A stretch of 58,544 bases of DNA, filler included, from Dugesia japonica (Eukaryota): assembly GCA_001938525.1 (NCBI GenBank). It is 5 parts of 5 records of this genome, joined end to end, with 100 filler letters (N's around TTAATTAATTAA, not from the genome) between each part and the next. Parts side by side here need not be neighbours in the genome. Positions count along the whole stretch, not along the records: positions 20,438 to 38,638 come from MQRL01602112.1; 4 more parts are not named here. One strand, written 5' to 3'. The notes beneath the pieces are model-generated. The model was not told the origin of the DNA. It saw only the letters and a list, made by a program, of their open reading frames with translations, and made no database searches. Shown here one piece after another: positions 1 through 51,415 of the stretch. Each line of letters begins with the position of its first letter. The first letter of the stretch is position 1. The translations under genes and the position numbers were made by a program.

Positions 1-1501
1 TGATAAATTTGTGTCAGAACTTATAACTGAAAAATACTGAAATAATCATGAAAAGAAATTGGCAGTTTGATAAAAGGTAACAAGAAACTAAATATTCAAG
101 ATAAATTAGAGTATTATAAAAAAATCCAAAATTTCAAAAAAGTAATTTTCAAATGCAATTATTGATTTTAAATTGAATATAAAACAGTTTCAGTTTAGTA
201 AATGCAATATTGTTTACAAAATAATCCATAAAATTTTATTAATTAAAAAGAATTAATACTTGAAAATTTGTTCCAAAACTTAAAAATTGTTGTTATTATG
301 ACCTCATCGTTATTTTTAACGACATCACTACAATATTACGACTAATACCTTTATATTGTGCGAATAGTGTACTGTTATAAAGTGCTGGTAACATCCTCCC
401 CATTTTATTTTCATCTGTCCAAAGTTAGCATAGCCTTAACACCGGTCATTTTATTATTGTTTTGTCTCTTCAGATTATACACATATTTTTGTACTTGAGA
501 TTAAATCATAGTAGTTTCAGTAAATATCTAAAAAATTCAGTTTCGAAAACGTTAAGAGAGCTCTTCAACCCTGAGGCTATTCTTCAAGACATCACCAAAC
601 AACAGGCCACTACTCTACGATTCGTGATATGGTTTTGGGGCAGATCAAAATCCATGGTTGATTGTCGCGAACCACAGTCGTAGGAAGAACCAACAAATCC
701 GAGCATTGTAAGTAGATCTACGAGATAAACTGGATCAGAATAAGGACCTGCAGAATTAGATACAATAGAAAGATTGACAGCTAAATGAATTAGGAGACCA
801 ACTTCATCAACTCGTGGATAACTATCATAAGATTCTATAACAAATAGATATCCATCAAGTTCAATAAAACGCGAAAATAACAAGTATAATTCAGAAAATG
901 AAGCGAAAATTGGAAGTAGCTATCGCCGGCACAAGCGGAAGACCTAATTGAAAAATAAAAAGAATATTGTCTTGAACCCCAGCCAAGGAATGAAGCAGAA
1001 TTTGGATGGCGTTTGACGAAACCAAAGTTGAAGCTGACAGTTAATTCTTAACTGTGTGTATAAATATCATAATGCTTTGTTTTATGTTTGCTTCTAGCTG
1101 ATGTATATATTGTATGTGTTTCACTAAATCATTTAATATATGATGCTAACGGGGGTTTATTGCGTTTGAGTGATCGTTGCTCAAGAGAATATTTCTGTGG
1201 CGACATAAAATCTTTCTAATCACCGTGTAATCATTTACACCATCGTTTAAATAACTTAAACTCTACTAGTACCAACCCTTATTAGTGTTGATTTACCTGT
1301 TTAACCGTACATTGAAATTAATCACTAGAATAAAAACATACATTGTTCGTTTTTCATGAAAACAATTAATGTATTTTTATATTTAGATCATGTCCATCAA
1401 AGAAGTACACCTAATGCGAAATTAATTGCTGGAGAGACAGGCAAAGTGGAGTGTGGAGCAACGCAAGACTAAACATGAGCTGAAAGAAGCAAAAAAATGA
1501 A

Positions 1502-2938
1502 GTGATACAATTAAATATTGCGGGAGCGAGTGAGTTGCACAACCTTCAAAAGAGTGCTGAGGAATCTGAAGGCTGTTCCGAGCACAATTTTTTGCTTCGT
1601 TGTCTCCTTGATGAACAGAATCGATATGCCAAGTTCAACTTGCATATCGCGTTTTTAGACATTGCTGATGCCTTTGGAAGTATCCCAGTTGAGCATATTC
1701 TTGTTCTTCTTTCGAGAATGGGGGTCACCGAAAAGGCTACTGGATTAATCAGAGCCCTATATTCTGAATGCTCCAGCTATTACATCTGCAATAAGGTTTC
1801 TACTAACCCTATCGCTAACAAAAGAGGGGTTAGACAAGGCTGCCCTCTTTCAATGTTGTTGTTTAACATTGGCATCAATCCTATTATTAATGAGATTTCT
1901 AAAACTGAAGGTGCCGGTGTTAAATGTGCTGGACATCCCATATCTTGTTTGGCATATGCANACGATCTGGCACTTGTAGCCTCTTCCAAGGCTAGCCTAC
2001 AGGATATGGTTGATGCCGCTGTCAAATTTGCAGATTGGTCTCATCTTAATTTTCGGCCAAGCAAGTGCGCATATTTGTCTTGTCCAAAAAATAATGAACT
2101 TGCTCAAATTGTCGTTAGGGATGAAGCTATACCAAAACTGTTGAATAATGACTCTTATCGGTATCTTGGGGTCGATTTTAATCGTGTACACTTTCAAACA
2201 CCAACGGACATGTTTGCTAAAGCTGCAAAGGATGACAAGAAAATTTCTAACTCCGTACTGTATCCTTGGCAGAAAATCCACGCATATCGAACCTTTATTC
2301 ATTCTAGGTTCACTTTTGCTTTCAGAAACTTTAACATTCCGTTGGGAAAGTTTGACTGCAGTGAACATTATGAAAATGGAATTCTTCTTCGACTACGAGG
2401 TATCGATAAGCGCATTTGCACTAGCATTAGGCAAATCTTGTCTGTTCCAGCCACTGCTACATGTGACTATATGCATAGTTCTCGTAAACTTGGCGGGGTT
2501 GGGTTAACTTCTGCGAGGAACGAATATTCCGTACAATCTTTGGTTCAAGCTTTTAAAATGCTTACTTGTTTTGACAAGACTGTACGGGATGTCACCAGCA
2601 ATGATCTTGTTCATGCTGCGACTAAGCATCTTAAACGTTTTGATTTGCGTTCCTTAGATGAATCTCTTGATTGGCTCTTCATAGATACCACCAATTCGAA
2701 TCTGACGTGTTGGTGGTCTAAAGTCCATGAAGCAATTGCTTATCTGTACAGATTGTATTACATACAAATTAAGCTCAAAAGGAACGAACATGACATTTGT
2801 ATGCAGATAATTGATTGCTTCTCTGAAGGAAATTACTTAATTTCTTTCAAGGACCGGAGAGGTTATATGTTAAGGTTATATGTTAACATGAAAATAATGA
2901 ATAGAAAAGTTAATGAGCAAAATCGAAGAATCGATTGA
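1502..2938 (+). mobile_element. 5'-truncated non-LTR retrotransposon reverse transcriptase, R2 group (NeSL/Utopia-like); homology runs about 1560-2860
   Basis: RT motifs EGCSEHNFLL, FLDIADAFGSIP, GVRQGCPLSMLLFN, LAYAxDLAL, FRPSKC and YRYLGV. The LYPWQKIHAYRTF and RKLGGVGL thumb motifs are typical of NeSL/Utopia. No C-terminal CCHC or REL endonuclease is present. Confidence 0.85.
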
Positions 2939-20437: not shown

Positions 20438-21340
20438 TAATTTACACTAATCGATCAATGGACACATTTAATAGATTGTTATCTGTCTTATCTACTGATT
20501 ATGTGAGTAACGCGCCATCCTGTTCCATCGCCACTTTATTAAATAGCGTATTTTCTATTATGAACTTTAATTTCTTGTTCCCATCTTCTTCTGCTTTTGT
20601 TAGATGAACTCTTTTTTTGCCATATTTTAAATAGATATCTGTTTATGGTGGTGTTAAGAATCTGAATTCTCCTCTCTTCTTATTTCTCTTATTTGATGTT
20701 TCTAACCAACTAAACTCTGGTTCGGTTAGAAATATATCTGTTTCTCGTCCCATTGAATCATCGCTTTAACTATCTGTATAATACGGCATATAAACACAAT
20801 CCTCTCTAACTTGTTCTACCGTAAGATCTTTCAACTGTTCGTCTCCATTATCTGATTCAGTGAGGTCTACAACACGTTTTGGTTCCATAATATCTTCTAT
20901 CTGTTCATCTCCCACGTCAGACCAGTATTCAGTACTGCTATTTATCTGTCCTTCGTCTAAATCACAAGTTTCTTCATGTAAGGGAACTGGGATTTTCTTT
21001 CACTGTTTGACTACCCACTGTTCGTCCTTCTTGCCTTGGATCTCCAGCTGTCTGTTCTCCTCAACCATTTGTCTTCTTATTTCTTCGTCATCTGACTCAG
21101 GACTATATTCGTCACTGCTGCATTCGTCTTTAATTTCATCTTTGACCGACTTGTTGTCGTCATCTCTAGTTCGGCTCGACTTTTGTATCCAGGTCATCTT
21201 CGGATTCAGAATCTAATATCCATCGAATACTTATTGGCTTAACAACTTCTCTAATTGCAATGCCATGCGTCGTGTTCTGATCTTCTTTGATTAATGTCAT
21301 GTTATCAGTTGTCTTTGGTTGTATGGAATCCCTCCATTTC
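20438..21340 (-). pseudogene. Acidic accessory ORF remnant in the 3' region of the Gypsy element
   Basis: The frame of ORF 21000-21197 continues through isolated stops (ECSSDEYSPESDDEE...TEYWSDVGDEQIEDIMEPKRVVDLTESD...) to the gap. No family recognised. Confidence 0.5.
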
Positions 21341-21635: not shown

Positions 21636-22384
21636 TTATCGCTTATGCATTTGAATTAAGATGACTATGAAAGCGAGGAGGAAGAGTGATGCAATCATTC
21701 CCAGTATTGAAAAAGGGTGATGTAATATTTTTATGTCAAATGGTTTTATTGTTGTCGTAACCCACATCTGTAGAGTTTTCTATCGTAATTGTTGGTAATT
21801 TAATTTCGTGTTATCTTTCAAATTCTCTTTAAATCCTTTAAAGTTTCTGTCTGTATTCACATTTGTCGTCGTTTTTATTGTAGTACTAGTATATACTAGT
21901 GTACTATGATGAATAGTTGTTTCTATTTGTGATTTGGTTGTATGCAACTTTTTATGTTTTGTGGGAGTAGTTATTAATCTTATTTGTGGTAGAACTTGTT
22001 TGTTTGGTAGTGTAGTAAACATATGTTGTTCTAATGACCTGGTTCCGTTTATCCAATAATTTATCCAAGTTCTATATTTTGTGCTGGCCTCTAGTCTTTT
22101 TATCTCTATCTGGCCTATCCCCTTGTTAAATTTCATTGGTATTGGTATGAAGACCTATTTTTTCCGGTGTATGCAATCGATATATCTCTGACGTATGCGA
22201 TTGGTCTATCCTTTATCGTTGCAGCGATCATTATATTATCAGGTGCTCTGAGTATAATTCTATCTGAATAAGTTATTCTTGTTATGTAACTAGAACCTTT
22301 ACTCTTCTCTAGTTGAGCTATACTTACTGTCAACAATGTCAATAAAGTTAGTGCAAAAAGTGGTACTGTGCTTTTTGACCCTGA
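21636..22384 (-). pseudogene. Putative type I membrane protein: signal peptide, FN3-like beta domain, Thr-rich stalk, TM helix; starts in frame after the integrase
   Basis: HKYNL*SGSKSTVPLFALTLLTLLTVSIAQ; after a frameshift, IEIKRLEASTKYRTWINYW, TSTTIKTTT and FSILGMIASLFLLAFIVILI-QMHKR. Confidence 0.6.
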
Positions 22385-23543
22385 TCAAAGATTGTATTTA
22401 TGTTGCTTTTGAGATTCAATTTCCACTTCTGCTACTTTACATCTGTTGACGGCAACAATTATTGGATCATTTTGTTTATTTTTTATCACATGCAGATTTG
22501 TAGGATTTACTTTTATTACCTCATATAGGCCTTTGTAAGGTCTTGCTAATTTATTTGTTAATCCCTTCTGTGTAACTGGCGTTTTTATTCTCACTTTGTC
22601 TCCAACTTTAAAACTAGATTCTTTGGTTATTTTGATCATAATAATCTTTGCATTGTTTCTGTTTAAACTTTACTTTTAGATTTGCCTGTTTATATACCTG
22701 TTGTAATCTTTCCTGCATTTTTGTAGCGTAATTTGGATTGTCCATATACTGCGACACAATTGGTTCAAATGTTATATCTATTGGCATATGAGTTTTTCTG
22801 AGATACATAAGGTAAAATGGTGAATATCCCGTAGCTTCGTTCTCAGTTGTATTATGTATGAACAATGTTGGTTTAATAAATAGATCCCAATCATTTTGAT
22901 GTTTATTCATGGAGACTGCCAATCTATTATTACCNTCAGTTTGTGGGTGATAAGCCGTTGTATTTATTTTCTTAATATCAAACATATTTGTTACTCTTTG
23001 TATGACTTTGTTGAAGAAATTCTTTCTTCTATCTGATAACAGCGTTCTTGGCGCTCCATATTTGTAGATTATTTTCTCAACTAATAACCTTGCTACTGTA
23101 TCTGCTGTTTCATCTTTTTTTGGAAATGCTTCTGCCCATTTTGTAAAATAATCATTGAATACTAATATGTGTTTGTTACCCTTTATAATTGTTGGTGATT
23201 TGCATAGGAAATCCATTGCATATGTTTCCATTGATGACCTGGGTATTGGAATTGGTTGTGATGGAACTTTGGTTTTTGTTCCTGTTTTTTCTTTTAGCAC
23301 AAATGCTACATGCTTGGCACCTTTTTTTATATTTTCTTTAATATTATCCCAAAAATATTTTTGTAGTAATCTTGATGTGGTTTTTCTTCTTGATAAATGN
23401 CCTTCAAGCGCTCCATCATGATATTGTAGCAGTAATAATTGTTTTAAAGAATCTGGTACAATCATTAGATTTTTCCCTAAATTATTGTACATGAGCAAAT
23501 TCTTAACCATTTTATATTTAGTATTCTTTTCTTGAATCATCAT
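22385..23543 (-). pseudogene. Integrase (HHCC, DDE core, GPY/F), frameshifted
   Basis: QYHDGALEGHLS, YAMDF, DYFTKWAEAFP, LLSDR, TTAYHPQT and FKVGDKVRI..RPYKGLYEV. Confidence 0.95.
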
Positions 23544-23689
23544 CTTTTTAATGTCTTTTGTTTTTTATCTTTATTTTACTCTTCTAGAAACGTTTTCGAG
23601 TTTGTTTCAGTCATAACGATTGACATCATTTCCATTATATTTATTTCAGGAATTCTTGATAATGAATCAGCATTTTTATTTGCTTTACC

Positions 23690-25012
23690 TGGCTTGTATA
23701 TTATACGAATACTCATATCCTGAATTTTCATTGCCCATTTCAATATCCTACTGGATACATCTTTTTTTTTCCATAAACTCTCTAATGGTTTATGATCAGT
23801 TCGGATAACTATCTCTGTTCCATTTATATATATGGTCTAAATTGTTTCAACGCAAATATGATAGGTAAACATTCTTTTTCGATTGTTGAATATCTTTTTT
23901 CTGCTTCTTTTAACATTCTACTGGCATATGCAATGACATAATCTTTATTCTTTTCGTCCACCTGACCATGGTACTGCTCCCATAGCATATCCACTTGCAT
24001 CTGTCATCACTATGAATTGCTTTGTAAAGTCAGGATATCTTAATATCGGAGCTGTTAGCAATCGTTGTTTTAATGTGTCGAAAGCTTCCGGTTGTTTTGT
24101 ATCCCATTGTTTTTGAGGTTTCTTTGGTTTTTCATCTAATGGCTCTACAATCATGACGTTTTTACGTTCGTCTTTAGTCTTCATACCCTTTGTTAATTCT
24201 ACCAATGGTGATGATATTTTTTGCGAAATCTTGTATGAATCTTCGATAATATCCCACTAGACCATTAAATCCTTGTAATTGTTGTACGCTTTTTGGCACA
24301 TTAAAATCTTGGAACGCTTTAGCCTTCTTTGGATTTGGCTCTAATCTCTTTGATGACACAATATGTCTGAGAAATAAAATACTTTCCTCTGCCCATTTGC
24401 AGTTTGTGTGTTTTAACTTGATTTGTGCTTTTCTAATTATGAACAGTACATTTTCTATGTTAACTAAATGTTTTTCAAATGTTTCAGATGCTATGAGTAT
24501 ATCATCTATATATACAACTACATGTTCAACACCTGTTAAAACTGTGTTCATTTATCTTTGGAATGTAGCTGGTGCATTACATAATCCAAATGGTAGTCTA
24601 ACAAATTTATATAATACATCATCAGTACAAAATGCTGTTTTCTCTCGATCTTCTTCCTGTACTAGGATTACATTTTAACCTTTATTAGCATCCAAACTTG
24701 CAAAGTATTTTGCATTCATTAACTTGTTGAACTGTTCATGTATTTTTGGAAATGAGTGTGTATCCTTTTTGTAACTTTATTAAGTTTTCTGTAATCAATA
24801 CAAATTCTAATCTCGCCGTCTTTCTTTTTGACTGGTACCATTGGTGATGCCCATTGGGAAAAACTATCTTGTATGATTCCATTCGCTTTCAGTTTTGCTA
24901 CATGTCTTTTTATTTCTGGTCTTAACGCATATGGTGCTACATATGGTCGCTGTTTTATCGTTCTTGCGTCACCTGTATCAATTATATGTTTTATAATATT
25001 TGTTCCTCCCAT
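23690..25012 (-). pseudogene. Reverse transcriptase plus RNase H of the Gypsy element
   Basis: [86 protein letters not shown] and YKPGKANKNADSLSR. Confidence 0.95.
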
Positions 25013-25639
25013 ATCAAATTCATGTTTAGCGAATGCATCTTCATATTTGTCTAGTAATTTCTGTAATTGCTGTTGCTAATTTATTGTGAGATTTTTATTG
25101 GTTATCTTTGTTTCCTCATAATACTTTGTTTGCTTTTGTTTTATTAGTTCTTTGTCAGTTAGTTTTCCAGTTTTTTCCTGTTTCTCCAGAATAAGTTCAG
25201 CTAATTCAAGATTATTTAATTTACATCTCTTTTTTCCTGATTTCATATTTGGAAATTGTTTATTTTATCTCTGTACATTTACTCTCTTTTGTTGCTCCTC
25301 CGCTACAGTTTCATATATTTCATATTCATTCCCATTCTCAAATAATTTTCCTAATTTTGTGTTTTTCTGGAGAAATACATCATAGTTGTTATAGTTGGCT
25401 ATTCTCATTGGTATTATCCCTTTTTTTGGTTGTACACATACAGGCATTATTGATAAGTTGTGTTTTTTTATTAATTTATCATTTGGTTCAAAAATATATG
25501 ACTTGTTATTTTGTACTTCTGTATTTATAGGCATTACACATTCACTACAGCGTTCTACTGTTATTAAGTCTGTTGCACATTTCACATTACATTCATCTTA
25601 CACTGGTAATGGTGTTACCATTTTTAGTGTGCCATCTTG

Positions 25640-25940
25640 TAAATCAATAACATAATCTTTTAACCTTGCCAGAAAATCTTTACCCAAAATGCAATTATGT
25701 GTTCTTCTTTCCATATGTGTAACAATTTCTTGTCCAATTGTAACCTTACACTCCATTATGCCTTTCGTTGTTATTATATGCCCTGTAAATGATTTTATAC
25801 CTTCCTGTTTATAATTCTTTATTTTCTGTCTTTGGGATTTACTTAAACATGATTCTTTTATTATTGAACATACTGCTCCTGTATCTATTAATGAAGTTAT
25901 ACTTATTCTATTTATTATGATGTCTGTTGTTGGTCTATTA
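25640..25940 (-). pseudogene. Retropepsin (aspartic protease), in the same ORF (25598-26680) as the glycoprotein C-terminus
   Basis: ITSLIDTGAVCSII ... CILGKDFLARL. Confidence 0.95.
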
Positions 25941-26159
25941 TTGTCTGAATCTATAACTGATATTGAATAGTTGTTTTGATATTTATATTGTGTTGAATCA
26001 TCTATTTTTATATGTTTTAATTCGATGTGTTCTTGTTTATATGGTTTATATTCTGTATCTGATGGTTTATCATTACTTAATTTGGTCAATTCTTGCTCAT
26101 CATCCATGTTTACTGTATATATACCTCGATCCTTTTCTAGATTCTTTATTTTTTCACTA

Positions 26160-27660
26160 TGATTTTGCACAATCATGTGTTTCGCAATAAATGGACAAAA
26201 ACATGCTCCTAGTTTCCATGTGTAACCGAAAATTGCATGATGACCTGCTAATTTTAAAAATGTTAAGACATACCACCCAAATAAAATACATAAGAATATA
26301 TTGCCAAACCATTGCATTCCCTCCAAAAATCTATCTAAAAAATTACGCATTGCCTTTTTAAAATGATCTGCGTGTAATAGTGATTCAAAATTTACATCGT
26401 CTCCATTACTCCCTTTCGCTACTTTATCAACCATTATTGATATTATTTTTTCTCTTTGTATTGGAAAAGGCATATGTTTTCTTGCTTTCTCAATATCGTT
26501 AATTGTATAAATACCACGGTTTTCCATATTATCAATCCTTTCCATTTCTGTTTTTCTACTGAGTTCTATCATTTCCATCATCAGTGGAGTTGGTGCTGTC
26601 TTTCTGTCCGACACTGTTATCCATACCTCTTCAGTTAGTTTGTACATAGGATCAAGAATATTACTACACTTTTCAATCACTTTTGGTTAAAAATTTTATC
26701 TGTTAGAATTCTTGTTATTGGAAGCAAAAATACTTTCTCTACCTTATAAATTACTGGTAATTCATTAGTACATTTTTCATGATCTGTAAGCATAACTGCT
26801 ACTGGTTTACATTTAAAACTCACTCAAGTTTCTCCCACTATTCTTCCAAATCTTCCTCTTTCTTCAAACAAGAATGGTGTTATTAAATCCGGATTTGTGA
26901 CTACCATTGCCATTTTTGCTCTTAACAATTCTCGATTAGTTTTGCAAATTTTTATCATTGTTTCTTGATATATTCTATCTACTTGTCTTATAATTTCATG
27001 ATAGAGAAAATCAATTTTGTTGTTGAAATATGTAGCTATTTGTACGTCCAATTTATCTACCTTTGGTCTGACATCTTTAATTTCTATTGTTTATAGATAC
27101 AGCCCATTATAATTTGTAACTGTCACTGCCACTCCACACTTTGTACCTACTCATTTTTCAATAAGTCTTAATGCCTCTTGTGTTGAATTTGATATATATA
27201 CTGTTGGTGTTGCCTTTTCACCAATCAGGGTTGCTTTCCTTTTTGCATCTTGTATGTTAGGTGGCTTATCCGTTGGTAAAGTTCCACTAACTTTTCTCAT
27301 TACCACTGCCCTTAATTTCGTACGTGTACATTCAAATGGATTTACTTTATACAGGATCATAGACTCTCCAGTGTCACAACTTATATCTTTTGAGCTACAA
27401 AATGGATATGTCATCATCTTCTTCTTCAAATTTTACGCTACATTCATGCGTCTACATGTGCGAAATCAGATTCTTGATATAAATGTATGATTTTTGGATT
27501 TGATATTTTTATTTTCGTCGGATGCGCCTCCGGACATTCTCAACATCTAATAATGAGTACTTTTACCCCATTTTGGAGTATTACAATCATATGCTACCAT
27601 CGCATTTGCTCCTCTTGCTAACTCTAATAGCATTATTATAATTGTTATTATTGTACCCAT
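26160..27660 (-). pseudogene. Envelope glycoprotein, chuvirus-like class III fusion family, fragmented
   Basis: Signal peptide MGTIITIIIMLLELARGANA, then MVAYDC..YSLLDVEEC..IHLYQE. Core DVQIATYFNNKIDFL..KICKTNRELL..GRIVGE..FKCKPVAV..CTNELPV..FLLPITRIL..CSNILDPMY. TM WFGNIFLCILFGWYVLTFLKL. The motif order matches chuvirus-type glycoproteins. Confidence 0.85.
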
Positions 27661-27762: not shown

Positions 27763-28122
27763 TAACGTTTCCAAACCTCCTTCTTGCGTGATCCACGCGT
27801 TAATTCCTCTGTTCAAAAACTGATTAACTATTCGTTCTACAACTTCAATGTTTTTTTCAGGTCTCTAAACTAATTCTTCCCGATTCTTGAGTATTAGATA
27901 CAAAATAGCTGTAACTACCTTATTTTTGTTTATTCCTTCATTCATCATTGTTTTTAATACTTTATAATCATCAATTTCTAGATCTGTTATTATCAATTTG
28001 CTCACTTCTTTTAATATGAGTTTCATTTCCTCGAATATCATTAGTGCTCTATTCTGAGTTATTATACAATCATATAGATCAGCGTGTACCAATTTAATTA
28101 GGCTTCTTATAAGTCCTTGATC
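27763..28122 (-). pseudogene. Bcl-2-like helical domain (one in-frame stop at 27865-27867)
   Basis: BH1-like MMNEGINKNKVVTAILYL (cf. LFRDGVNWGRIVAFF) and BH2-like FLNRGINAWITQEGGLETL (cf. YLNRHLHTWIQDNGGWDAF), at plausible spacing in one frame. Confidence 0.65.
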
Positions 28123-28469
28123 TGATCCTGCTGATGCTTGCTCATCACATCTTTATGATATATTATTCAAATGTTAAGCCTGCAATTTTTCTGGTATTAT
28201 ATCCTATGATTTTGGTCTACCTCTTGATCTCTTGTAGTCTGATACTTTGTCTTTAAATATTTTCTGTCTTAGTATTTCACTTCTTGCATTATCTGATGTT
28301 GATGATTTTCCAACTCTTGTGCTTGATGTTGGTAGCTATTTTGTCTTTTTTTTGTCTTTTTTTCTTGCTGGCTTGCTCTTTCTTCCTAGACTCTATCTGC
28401 TTGTGCCATCATACTCAAAATTTCCTACATAGATGGTTGTTGATTATTTTTTATGCTTGTGATGTATGT

Positions 28470-28714
28470 TTCATTATCGTTGCTTTTATGATGGTAACAT
28501 TACCTGGAATAATTCCATATTCCATCAAAGTATTATTCTCATTTAACTCTGTATTATAAAAAGATAATTGTATCACATTTTCATTTTGTAACACTATTGG
28601 CCAATCTCTTTTCAACGTTTTATATAATTTATTCGTTTTTGTACACGCATGCATCGTCAGTTCTAATGCTGTTAAAGAACAATCGTTTTGTTCTGCTATT
28701 ACTTTGACATTTAA
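28470..28714 (-). pseudogene. Ubiquitin-like (beta-grasp) domain
   Basis: LNVKVIA..ALELTM..TKTNKLYKTLK..IQLSFYNTELNENNTLMEYGI (cf. [21 protein letters not shown]). Confidence 0.65.
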
Positions 28715-29099
28715 CGACTCCTGTCAGGTTTCATTTCTTTTCACATGTTCACTATATTTTTGAAATATCTCATCTATTGCTTCCAAATTCTCTGATATCT
28801 CTATTTTACTTCGAATTTTTGCTAAAATGATTATTATTAGTTTAATTTTCTGAAGGTTGATAGGATATTCATTAATATCTTTCAAATATTGCAAGAATCT
28901 AAGTTTATTAGTTCTTTCTTTTGTTATCTCTAATCGGACATTCTCTATCAATATTTCTTGCTTCCTTTCATCAATTGCATCTAAATCCACTTCTCTTGGC
29001 TCACACATATTGATTTCATATTTCTCTCTCTTGCTGTCTCTCCATCATAAGCTGATAATGTATTTTCATATCTTCTAACTCACTTCTCATATTTTCATA

Positions 29100-30269
29100 A
29101 GCTTCATTATCGATTACTTCAATAGCATTAGCTTCTCTTGTATCTGGACTGAATGATACATCTTCTTTTAGAATACTTCTAAATTCATTTGGTTTATTTC
29201 TACTTACTCTTGCTATATATTCATATTTATTACAATTATAACACTTTATTTGCTCACTGTTGTTTAATTTATCTCTACTTTCATTTGAAAAATACGGGCT
29301 TGGACTTTTTATATTATCATATTTCTTTGGACTATATCTCGATTATCTCGATTATATCCTCTTGCAGGACTTGCGTTCCTGTCATAATTTCTACCTGGGT
29401 TGAAATTTTTATTATAATTGTTATAATTTCTTCCAGGACTCGAATTTCGATTTTAATTGTTATAGCTCTTTCCGGGGCTTGAATTTCTATTGTAGTTATT
29501 GTAATTTCTCCCAGGACTTGAGTTTCTGCTGTAATTGCTATCATTTCTTTGATAATATTCCGTTTTAAATATCACATCTTGATGTTTTCTACTATCTTGA
29601 CGATTTTGATATGCTTTCCTCATCTCATTCCATGACGATTCCTCGTTACTCGCTTCAATTGTATATATTTATCTGGTTTTCTCTTTATGCTTAGTATTCG
29701 CCTCAATTTGCTTTGCTTTTGTTGTTAGTTCCTCTAAATCTTTATATTCTGCTGCAATTAGACCATCTCGAATATGTTTATGTGTCCCATTCAGAAATTG
29801 AAATTCTATGATATGACCAGTATTATCTCCTTTTCCAAAAGCTTGTTCTGCTAACCTTGTTAATTCGTATATATATATTCGCTCACGGTTACATTTGATG
29901 ACTGTGTTCTATATCTGAACTTTTGCATGCAGACTCTTTCTGATTCACTTGGGACTATTATATTTTTATCAACTTTTTTATTAACTCATCCGATTTATCA
30001 GGTTTAACATCCATATTTTTGTAACATTTTAATGCATATTCCTTCAAATAAAGTGGTAATCGTTTAACTAATTCTGCTTCTGTCCATCCACAAGCTGTGG
30101 CACAAACATGCATATGCTCAAAGTATTAGTCCAATTCTCCAGGTTTCTTTGCATAAAACTGTATGAGTAATACATTCAATGTACCGCGGTATCCAAATCC
30201 ATCACCTATTTGATCATTAATCGGTAAATTTTTAAGTGGCATATTTTCATTATTATTTGCCGCCGCCAT
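29100..30269 (-). pseudogene. gag: gag (capsid, 13-aa repeats, degenerate zinc knuckle)
   Basis: ATG at 30269 (MAAANNNE). CATACGWTEAELVKRLPLYLKEYAL is a Ty3-capsid-like motif. Knuckle remnant CYNCNKYEYIARVS at ~29215-29256. Confidence 0.85.
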
Positions 30270-30646
30270 TTTTTGGATATTTCTGTTTCGCAACTTGTAT
30301 ACTATATTCTCTTCAATGATTATTCCTTCAGTTTCGTTTCAACTGATACACTAATCAAAAAAATTCTTCGGTTTCGTTTCAACTGATAAACTTTGAATGA
30401 CTGTTAACTTTATTATTTTAAGGGAACTGATTTTATATTATCAAAACTTTGGTAAGAGATTGCGGCAGGAATTCAATCCGATTCTAATACCAAACTTAAG
30501 ATAATCAAATTTATCAACTTTGATAAGAGATCGTAGTATAATTTTCTCTTATATCTGATATCAAACTGATCAATACACGGTATATTTTAATAAAGGTCTG
30601 AACATCCGCTTGATTTTAGATTAATTTTAATAATTTTTATTATTTT

Positions 30647-30667
30647 GATTCCTTGTTCGCGGCACCA
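30647..30667 (-). promoter_or_regulatory. Primer binding site, tRNA-His-like
   Basis: The minus strand TGGTGCCGCGAACAAGGAATC lies 4 nt downstream of the LTR end. It is complementary to a tRNA 3' end ...TCGCGGCACCA, resembling the His acceptor ...CACGGCA-CCA. Confidence 0.8.
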
Positions 30668-30671
30668 ATTT

Positions 30672-35990: not shown

Positions 35991-36322
35991 AAAATAAAGA
36001 AAAAGCTTCGATCAAAATGAAATGTATTTGTAAAAAAGTTCAAATTTTCGACAATAGTCTTCTTCAGGAACATGACGACTTATTGATTGATTCAAAACAA
36101 TAGATCTTTGTTACTCAATTCTTTAGATTTTATCGGATTTTTATTGGTTTATTTAACAAAAAAATAAAATAAAAATCTGATAAAATCTAAAGAATTGAGT
36201 AACAAAGATCTATTGTTTTGAAGCAATCAAGAAGTTGTCATGTTCCTGAAGAAGACTATTGTCGAAAATTTGAACTTTTATACAAATCCATTTTATTTTG
36301 ATGGAAGCTTTTTCTTTATTTT
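35991..36322. mobile_element. Long palindrome (~155-bp arms) with a minimal hammerhead ribozyme in each arm
   Basis: The arms are near-perfect reverse complements. Hammerheads at 36242-36275 (+) and 36038-36071 (-). Confidence 0.8.
36242..36275 (+). ncRNA. Minimal type I hammerhead ribozyme
   Basis: GTTC-CTGAAGA-A-GAC tatt GTC-GAAA-AT-TT-GAAC: stem I GTTC/GAAC and 3-bp stem II. The cleavage-site base is U, which is non-canonical. Confidence 0.7.
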
Positions 36323-50136: not shown

Positions 50137-50193
50137 TATTAGGTAATTAAAAATTTGTACATTAAATTATGAATAATGATTCTAAATTTCCAG

Positions 50194-51415
50194 ATCTCAA
50201 TCCCACAGATAATTTTAAAGATATTGATATTATTTTCACGGTAAATCTCAGCGACATTTCTGCAATGCAGAAAATTAAAAACACAGTATTTTCATTGATG
50301 ATAGACTTGTTGAAGAAGCATATTAACAATAAAGCAGAATGCCTTAAACAGAACTTCATCATAAATGAAGAATTAATCAAAGATAATTATATTCCTAAAA
50401 TGACTCGTATTATAAGCAATCAAGAATCAAATGCAGATTGCTGGTCGTTAATTTCTCTTGGAATGTCAGAAATTGGAAGTGAAACTATAGAGTTAAAATT
50501 TATTGATAAAATGAAAAGACAATACGAATTCACAATTGATTCATTTCAAATAGTTTTAGATACAATGTTAGCCTTTTATACTGTCAGTAAATGTTCCTCA
50601 ATCACACCGAATCTTTTTCCTACTGTAGTTGCAGAATCAGTGTCTGGTAGTTTTCAGGAGGCTTTTAAACACTTGAAAGATAATATAATCTCAACCAAAA
50701 ATCCAGAAGAAATTCATGGAGGAGGACTTCTTAAATATTGTCAACTAATAGCAGCTGGATATCATCAAAATTCATTGATGGATGTTAGAGCAACAGAAAA
50801 ATATATGTGTTCTCGATTTTTTATTGATTATCCCGATATAAACTGCCAAAAACAAAAACTAGAATCGTTCTTAGAATCATTAAATGATTGTAATTATGAA
50901 GTGAAAATCAATTTGCTAAATGTAAATTTTATTGTTTTCTAGAAAATAGATATAAATTTTAAATTTCATAGATACTTTATGAAGTGGTATCACATTCTAC
51001 AGTTTGTCTTATGACCCACGAGAGACGTCAAACTCTGCAAATGATCAATAATTCTGTACAGAATATCTTATCAGAAATCGAAATTAAAAAATCTACAGTT
51101 CAATTGGATGATTTAAGTAGCCAAAACTGGGTTCTCGATCAAGTGTTCTATGGAACATTTTATTTCCCACAACAAGTTTATGTTACTGGGCCCATGAATA
51201 CAACTCAGCCGAACAATTTAAATCTTGGGAATATATCAGGTAACCAAATTTTAATTTGTACTGGAGACAATACTGATTTCATGACAACCACTAATCAAAT
51301 CGTATCTGTAAATCATACGACATCTACCGCCATCGATAGTAATTCATGGTTAAACGGTTATCAAAACCAGAATAATCAAATCTATTGTTGTAACGGCCCA
51401 TTAATGTGTGCATAA
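50194..51415 (+). CDS. TENT5: TENT5/FAM46 terminal nucleotidyltransferase, last two exons (50194-50921, 50972-51415); 5' exon(s) not located
   Basis: FKDIDIIF, DCWSLISL, IELKFIDKMKRQYEFTIDSFQI, PTVVAESVSG, GGGLLKYC, YMCSRFFIDYPD and STVCLMTHERRQTL. The 50-bp GT-AG intron 50922-50971 joins the two ORFs in frame. Confidence 0.9.

What the first reader, a model, noticed from the sequence alone, without database searches (positions are those of the whole stretch)
21636..22384. Second surface protein at the canonical env position, apparently fused to integrase
The integrase ends KYNL*SG, where TGA is plausibly a mutated CGA of a YNLRS motif. The same frame continues into a signal-peptide-like stretch, and after one frameshift come an FN3-like strand motif (IEIKRLEASTKY, cf. 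ITGLxPxTxY), an NGT sequon, a Thr-rich stalk, a 20-aa TM and a basic stop-transfer. Inference: the element may split entry functions into a fusion protein and an attachment or immune-decoy protein, as many enveloped viruses do.
Basis: partly seen in the sequence, partly recalled or inferred. Interest (0 to 1): 0.75.

Follow-up and report, generated by a model that had tools for sequence, protein, structure and literature searches.

The report
Fibronectin-type surface protein behind retroelement integrase
A decayed virus-like jumping gene carries, directly behind its integrase, the remains of a second predicted membrane protein with a fibronectin-type domain, a layout that three distant relatives share and that likely helps its particles attach to cells alongside the known fusion protein.

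Summary
The segment is the 3' end of a decayed gag-env-pol Ty3/gypsy element with a gB-type env. Behind the integrase come a signal-peptide-like stretch, an FN3-like unit, an S/T-rich stalk and a 19-residue hydrophobic helix. Other copies differ at all three stops. At 22387 only about half to two-thirds of the depth is sense. All 3 relatives with over 40% integrase identity run without a stop from integrase into a hydrophobic stretch and FN3-like units. One (L003) is a single open frame through helix and cytoplasmic tail. None of 18 more distant integrases has such a tail. A model of one unit (pLDDT 77.5) matches FN3 structures best, though no E-value reaches 0.001. Likely mechanism: an internal signal peptide in the polyprotein releases a type I surface protein that partners the fusogen. 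Attachment is inferred, not shown. My literature searches found no description. The scan noted the same architecture earlier on another piece of this genome (e1-9041064).

The parts
30650..30669 (-). primer-binding-site-like stretch (TGGTGCCG...) upstream of gag
   Evidence: seen; likeness to a tRNA 3' end is recalled; no LTR pair found
28727..30338 (-). broken gag-like region with a degenerate zinc-knuckle-like stretch
   Evidence: by eye; two pieces scanned gave no gag family, a third was scanned in the wrong frame
27770..27965 (-). BCL2-like stretch ahead of the env signal peptide
   Evidence: Pfam Bcl-2 E 0.04, below the curated cut-off
26060..27660 (-). broken gB-type (class III) env with its own signal-peptide-like stretch and membrane helix
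   Evidence: PF24664 E 8e-28 and 9e-20
25601..26686 (-). one open frame joining the env C-terminal part to the aspartic protease
   Evidence: PF24664 at residues 6-209 and RVP at 249-343 of the same 362-residue frame
23579..25075 (-). broken reverse transcriptase and RNase H
   Evidence: RVT_1 E 1.8e-05, RT_RNaseH_2 E 9.8e-15
22388..23564 (-). integrase, in two frames (break near 22626-22628)
   Evidence: Integrase_H2C2 and rve; C-terminal part 49% identical to P0002; length differences in other copies
22385..22387 (-). stop codon at the integrase end, shared by part of the family
   Evidence: another letter, giving a sense codon, in 306.5 of 631.7 depth (X1), 502.2 of 752.5 (X6), 14.6 of 16.6 (X8, second organism), 9.69 of 9.69 (X10, one contig)
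22310..22366 (-). signal-peptide-like hydrophobic stretch, no methionine ahead of it
   Evidence: hydropathy 1.99 over 19 residues; counterparts in L001, L002, L003
21999..22309 (-). one FN3-like unit, split by a frameshift near 22155-22160; NGT sequon at 22049-22041
   Evidence: profile match of the second half, 22130-22038; frame-keeping length differences in 4 contigs of X1 and 6 of X6, about 30% of depth; fold shown for the homologous unit of L003
21711..21998 (-). S/T-rich stalk with an in-frame stop at 21780-21782
   Evidence: 47% S/T in best 30 residues; 98% (X1) and 97% (X6) of depth differ at 21782
21654..21710 (-). predicted transmembrane helix
   Evidence: hydropathy 2.88 over 19 residues
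21561..21653 (-). basic cytoplasmic tail, cut in this copy by the stop at 21636-21638
   Evidence: other copies part from the window at about 21554

Best explanation
The segment is the broken remnant of a conserved extension of the pol frame that is predicted to encode a type I membrane protein (internal signal peptide, FN3-like unit, S/T stalk, helix, basic tail), likely cut free from the integrase and likely serving as an attachment partner of the element's gB-type fusogen. Shown: the order of parts; the open integrase-to-tail frame in 3 of 3 close relatives; the FN3-like fold of a homologous unit, as a model. Inferred: the element makes one membrane-spanning polyprotein in which env and the tail face the ER lumen while protease, RT, RNase H and integrase stay cytosolic. 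Inferred: signal peptidase frees the tail, as it would free env behind its own internal signal peptide, so fusogen and tail are made one-to-one and reach the same membrane. Inferred and untested: the FN3 unit on its stalk binds a host surface molecule and so positions the fusogen.
For: L003 is one open frame of 1187 residues from RT through integrase, hydrophobic stretch, two FN3-like units, stalk, helix and tail. L001/P0002 and L002 also pass from integrase into a hydrophobic stretch and such units without a stop. All three were found through pol or integrase similarity, not through the tail. They form one clade with the window (98/98), and none of the other 18 rows has a comparable hydrophobic stretch after the integrase match (at most 1.73 against 2.28-3.19). 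Leave-one-out profiles recover 3 of 8 units at E 3e-08 to 7e-07. The 8-row profile's best PDB match is Dscam (E 0.0088), and 7 of 12 matches at E up to 1 are Dscam, NCAM2, contactin-1 or NagJ chains. The AlphaFold model has seven strands at pLDDT 77.5, and 8 of its 10 best Foldseek rows name FN3 in the title (probability 1.00). Env already lies in frame with protease in this element, as in Burro (PMC6431247, section 7 read), so internal signal peptides are part of the design. PMC13524379 (discussion read) states that the entry mechanism of gB-type errantiviruses is unknown, since herpesviruses need partner glycoproteins.
Against: No binding, cleavage, topology or expression evidence. Signal peptide and helix rest on hydropathy alone. 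A third to a half of the family's depth shares the stop at 22385-22387. No Foldseek row reaches E 0.001 and no unit passes Pfam's fn3 cut-off (best E 0.0064). Five of 8 units are recovered only weakly (E 0.04-6.9). The first half of the window's own unit does not score, and pairwise BLASTP of the window's tail against P0002 and L002 is not significant. None of the three relatives' contigs reaches upstream to env, so gB-type env and tail are seen together only in the window. L001 has a stop inside its second unit and L002 ends at the contig edge.
Confidence: 0.55

Rival explanations
1. The tail is a real surface protein but acts on the host cell, as a receptor decoy, a block to reinfection or an adhesion or signalling mimic, and plays no part in particle entry.
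For: FN3 units on a stalk are the build of adhesion and cytokine receptors (best matches). L003 has a cytoplasmic tail of about 75 residues. Burro-type polyproteins carry host-modulating domains such as BCL2 and BIR (PMC6431247, section 7), and the window has a BCL2-like stretch.
Against: One-to-one synthesis with env in a single polyprotein suits a particle component (inference). No particular host receptor stands out as the source: identities to the best structures are at most 22%.
Confidence: 0.25
2. The tail is made from its own spliced or internally started message; the shared frame with integrase is a relic of how it was captured, and a stop at the junction is tolerated.
For: The stop is carried by 51% (X1) and 33% (X6) of depth, and the neighbouring base shows no variant at 4% or more, which fits inheritance in a sub-lineage. 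An acceptor-like AG with 62% pyrimidines upstream lies at 22382-22381. L001 and L003 have a methionine right ahead of the hydrophobic stretch. Third frames of LTR elements are typically spliced (PMC5408684, passage read).
Against: 3 of 3 relatives keep the junction open across 55-60% integrase divergence. The window and L002 have no methionine ahead of the stretch. The relatives show no acceptor above 46% pyrimidines there. No RNA read showed a joint, but only 46 and 1 reads were laid. Defective sub-lineages can be copied in trans.
Confidence: 0.12
3. The extension mainly tethers the Pol enzymes to the membrane where particles bud; the FN3 units are a luminal spacer.
For: An uncut internal hydrophobic stretch would anchor the integrase end (inference). 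Contig depth is far higher over the helix and the integrase end than over the ectodomain, and one contig in each of two runs skips 21741-22475.
Against: A folded FN3 unit with sequons is kept in every relative, in one to three copies, which an anchor does not need. Contig depth is no copy number.
Confidence: 0.05
4. The features are chance patterns in decayed AT-rich DNA.
For: This copy has three stops and a frameshift in 750 bases; Pfam finds nothing in the window's pieces.
Against: The same order of parts in three independent relatives; other copies open at the stops; shuffle control 0 of 2000.
Confidence: 0.03

Closest known systems
GAG-ENV-POL HSV/gB-type errantiviruses of Platyhelminthes, esp. 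Smed_errantivirus_3 (Chary and Hayashi, PMC13524379; abstract, first parts of sections 5, 6 and 9, passages, and searches of the 7 text supplements seen)
   Same: Gene order gag-env-pol and gB-type env. By eye, the window's env resembles the Smed_errantivirus_3 row of supplement 2 most; not computed.
   Different: The paper describes no protein behind the integrase: 'fibronectin' 0 times in the main text, 'fibronectin' and 'FN3' 0 times in the 7 supplements. Its figures could not be seen. The listed Smed elements span 14.5-18 kb; this copy spans about 8.8 kb and is broken.
Burro / GYPSM1 giant planarian retroelements (PMC6431247, section 7 read; the original genome paper is not held)
   Same: BCL2-like stretch, then a mononegavirus-like env in frame ahead of protease, RT, RNase H and integrase.
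   Different: Much shorter; MATH, BIR and ankyrin domains not seen in the parts scanned. The review names no FN3 or membrane domain after the integrase. Whether Burro's 4,873-residue frame holds such a tail could not be checked.
sORF2/FAST-like proteins of env-less Drosophila retrotransposons (10.1101/2025.03.14.642691, three passages read)
   Same: An extra single-pass membrane protein in a gypsy element, with a basic patch behind the helix.
   Different: sORF2 has an ectodomain of about 30 residues, usually a myristoylation motif, and replaces env. The tail here has an ectodomain of 200-350 residues with FN3-like units and sits beside an env.
Extra third frames of bdelloid rotifer LTR elements (PMC5408684, 12 passages read)
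   Same: Captured membrane or enzyme frames behind pol; L003 also has a DEDD-like frame downstream (RNase_T E 0.003).
   Different: Separate frames, not fused to integrase; 'fibronectin' does not occur in that text.

Membership tests
Ty3/gypsy LTR retroelement | protease-RT-RNase H-integrase order | tested here: met
Ty3/gypsy LTR retroelement | pair of LTRs, primer-binding site, polypurine tract | tested here: inconclusive
   PBS-like stretch near 30667, purine tract at 20681, no LTR pair; runs of N lie at the 3' side
GAG-ENV-POL gB-type errantivirus | gB-type env between gag and pol | tested here: met
   PF24664 upstream of and in frame with protease
GAG-ENV-POL gB-type errantivirus | gag frame upstream of env | tested here: inconclusive
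   gag-like by eye only; no Pfam gag match in the pieces scanned
Burro / GYPSM1 | BCL2-like domain ahead of env | tested here: inconclusive
   E 0.04, 14.9 bits against a cut-off of 31.4
Burro / GYPSM1 | giant size (frame of about 4,900 residues; over 30 kb in all) | tested here: not met
   gag start to tail end about 8.8 kb; filed as Burro-like, not as Burro
Burro / GYPSM1 | MATH, BIR, ankyrin and SUMO-like domains | tested here: inconclusive
   none in the pieces scanned; 28150-29900 was scanned only in part
FN3 domain | seven-strand sandwich matching FN3 structures | tested here: met
   for the homologous unit of L003: seven strands, pLDDT 77.5; FN3 rows lead Foldseek, E 0.006-0.024. The window's own unit was not folded
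FN3 domain | Pfam fn3 gathering score | tested here: not met
   best 17.1 bits against 25, in L001; no match in the window
type I membrane glycoprotein | cleaved signal peptide and one helix, N-terminus outside | tested here: inconclusive
   hydropathy and sequons only; no topology predictor available
fusogenic env (F-type or gB-type) at the canonical position | homology to a viral fusion protein | tested here: not met
   no fusion-protein family for any tail piece; FN3-like fold instead
sORF2/FAST-like protein | ectodomain of 10-50 residues with N-terminal myristoylation motif | tested here: not met
   ectodomain of about 200 residues or more behind an internal signal-like stretch

The most novel reading that the evidence does not exclude
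A clade of gypsy elements has a two-protein entry system cut from one membrane-spanning polyprotein, in the manner of flaviviruses and bunyaviruses: a class III fusogen ahead of pol and an FN3 attachment protein behind the integrase. This supplies the partner that gB-type errantiviruses were thought to lack.
Probability: 0.3. Interest if true: 0.82.

Novelty: new variant of a known kind. Interest (0 to 1): 0.62.

Why it matters
How gB-type errantiviruses enter cells without herpes-like partner glycoproteins is stated as open in PMC13524379. A conserved FN3 surface protein behind the integrase is a concrete candidate partner and makes that question testable. It would also mean that a retroelement polyprotein crosses the membrane several times with the integrase between two luminal proteins, and that the 3' ends of pol frames in this clade hold an unannotated gene.

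Tried and rejected
No whole genome is held, so copies were seen only as contigs of public runs. Word-based homologue searches with the window's tail (longer proteins only) and with a three-row integrase-end-plus-tail alignment found nothing. The viral contig scan found no relative. The exhaustive HMMER search with the L002 tail gave 2 proteins: P0020, a true homologue with two units whose contig context is unknown, and P0021, a repeat artefact that I dropped. A single-sequence model of the two L003 units was poor (pLDDT 46) and its Foldseek result meaningless. A single-sequence PDB search gave only chance rows. The ESM Atlas and the wide structural search gave no answer. Alignment A1 misplaces the tail pieces and was not used. 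L004 and L005 are unrelated distant integrases; L005 was left out of the tree. No RNA holder was listed. RNA runs X12 and X15 gave 46 and 1 reads, mostly under 90% alike, so they say nothing about expression or splicing of this copy. Codon positions of the listed differences were too few, and mostly private to this copy, for a test of selection. The acidic frame at 21260-20601 does not match L003's downstream frame; two earlier Pfam scans of it used the wrong frame. Literature searches that found no description of an FN3 protein in such elements: (listings only; subscription papers, Repbase and the Burro genome paper are not covered, and bioRxiv supplements are closed). Host: probably a planarian, inferred from env likeness and AT-richness only.

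Full report
Setting. The window is AT-rich animal-type DNA with a decayed retroelement on the minus strand from about 30,670 to 21,550. Pfam places a gB-type fusion glycoprotein (PF24664, E 8e-28 and 9e-20), then protease in the same open frame as the env C-terminus, then RT, RNase H and integrase. A weak Bcl-2 match (E 0.04, below cut-off) lies just ahead of the env signal peptide. Gag is recognised by eye only. This is the order of the GAG-ENV-POL errantiviruses (PMC13524379) and of the planarian Burro elements (PMC6431247). The copy is much shorter than Burro and no LTR pair was found, so I call it Burro-like.

Observation. The stop at 21636-21638 that ends the finding is followed by a basic stretch in the same frame.

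Other copies in the same organism. Contigs of two runs from different studies show that the breaks are mostly damage. At 21782, 98% and 97% of depth differ from the window. At 21636, 44% and 69% differ, as do 14 of 14 RNA reads in one run. Frame-keeping length differences appear at 22156-22160 in 4 and 6 contigs, about 30% of depth. The junction codon behaves differently: it is sense in 49% and 67% of depth, in 14.6 of 16.6 in a second organism and in the one contig of a possible RNA run. Letters private to this copy beside it (22370, 22375, 22394) differ in about 95% of depth, so the junction stop is shared by a sub-lineage. Contig depth is not a copy count, so these are rough shares.

Relatives. 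The integrase search gave 18 long proteins, one of them (P0002) at 43% identity. Scans with pol queries fetched its locus L001 and two further loci, L002 and L003, at 42-44% integrase identity to the window. All three pass from the integrase end, without a stop, into a hydrophobic stretch and beta-rich units. L003 is open from RT to the end of a cytoplasmic tail. L001 has one stop inside its second unit and then goes on in frame to a stalk and helix. L002 ends at the contig edge. The window and these three form one clade (98/98) among 22 integrases, and none of the other 18 has a hydrophobic stretch above 1.73 after the integrase match, against 2.28-3.19. None of the three contigs reaches env.

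Fold. An exhaustive search with the L002 tail added P0020 (E 1.7e-15). Eight units from the relatives align; leave-one-out profiles recover 3 of them strongly and 5 weakly. That profile scores the second half of the window's unit above all 2000 shuffles, but not its first half. An 8-row alignment that includes the window's half-unit finds Dscam first in the PDB (E 0.0088) and folds to seven strands at pLDDT 77.5. Eight of the 10 best Foldseek rows name FN3 in their titles, at probability 1.00 and E 0.006-0.010; none reaches E 0.001. No unit passes Pfam's fn3 cut-off. The FN3 call is thus firm for the family as a model and carried to the window by a modest profile match and by position. The window has one unit, L003 two, L001 probably three.

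Mechanism. Env sits behind an internal signal-like stretch and runs in frame into protease, so the polyprotein must already cross the membrane (inference). A second internal signal behind the integrase would send the FN3 unit into the lumen and the last helix would anchor it, giving a type I glycoprotein made one-to-one with the fusogen once signal peptidase cuts (inference from established polyprotein processing in flaviviruses and bunyaviruses, recalled). A binding fold on a glycosylated stalk is what an attachment protein looks like, and gB-type fusogens in herpesviruses need partners (PMC13524379). I put this at 0.55, a host-acting role at 0.25, separate expression at 0.12, a mere anchor at 0.05 and chance at 0.03. 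Separate expression has some footing: the shared stop, an acceptor-like AG at 22382-22381 and a methionine ahead of the hydrophobic stretch in 2 of 3 relatives. The RNA data were too thin to test it.

Novelty. Neither the errantivirus survey (main-text word search and 7 supplements) nor the Burro review mentions fibronectin. Six further searches gave no relevant paper. Figures, subscription papers and repeat databases were not seen, and the tail may lie unannotated inside published Burro frames. After I had reached this reading, the scan's notes showed the same architecture with two FN3-like units on another piece of this genome (e1-9041064); no look-alike stretch was found by sequence. Verdict: a real, conserved and apparently undescribed second surface protein of a known kind of element; function inferred; interest 0.62.

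Noticed in passing
window 27770-27965, minus: BCL2-like stretch ahead of the env signal peptide (Pfam E 0.04, below cut-off), as described for Burro elements.
   Followed up: partly
window 20601-21260, minus: Broken acidic frame downstream of the tail, with a purine tract at 20681; no match to L003's downstream frame. It may be an accessory frame of the element.
   Followed up: partly
window 21741-22475: One contig in each of two runs joins the integrase end to the helix region and skips the ectodomain (72 other letters between): a deleted copy. Contig depth is also far higher over helix and integrase end than over the ectodomain, a hint of a variable ectodomain or of short derivatives.
   Followed up: no
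L003 3778-5559, plus: Separate 593-residue frame behind the tail with a weak DEDD-type exonuclease match (RNase_T E 0.003), recalling the rotifer third frames.
   Followed up: partly
L001 and L002: Both look like eukaryotic retroelement fragments filed inside bacterial genome bins, probably contamination.
   Followed up: no
window 50166-51412, plus: Nucleotidyltransferase gene (NTP_transf_7, E 3e-73), likely a host TENT5/FAM46-type gene (family name recalled).
   Followed up: no
window 1484-2935, plus: A 484-codon frame with a reverse transcriptase match (E 4.9e-21), a second, unrelated retroelement, probably non-LTR.
   Followed up: no
model of L003 2757-3020: Foldseek's viral library lists the walleye epidermal hyperplasia virus envelope polyprotein at rank 31 (E 0.065), a possible parallel use of FN3-like units in a retroviral envelope; two paper searches found nothing on it.
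   Followed up: partly
window 35991-36322: Near-perfect inverted repeat of 164 bases (93%) with 4 bases between the arms, next to a run of N.
   Followed up: no
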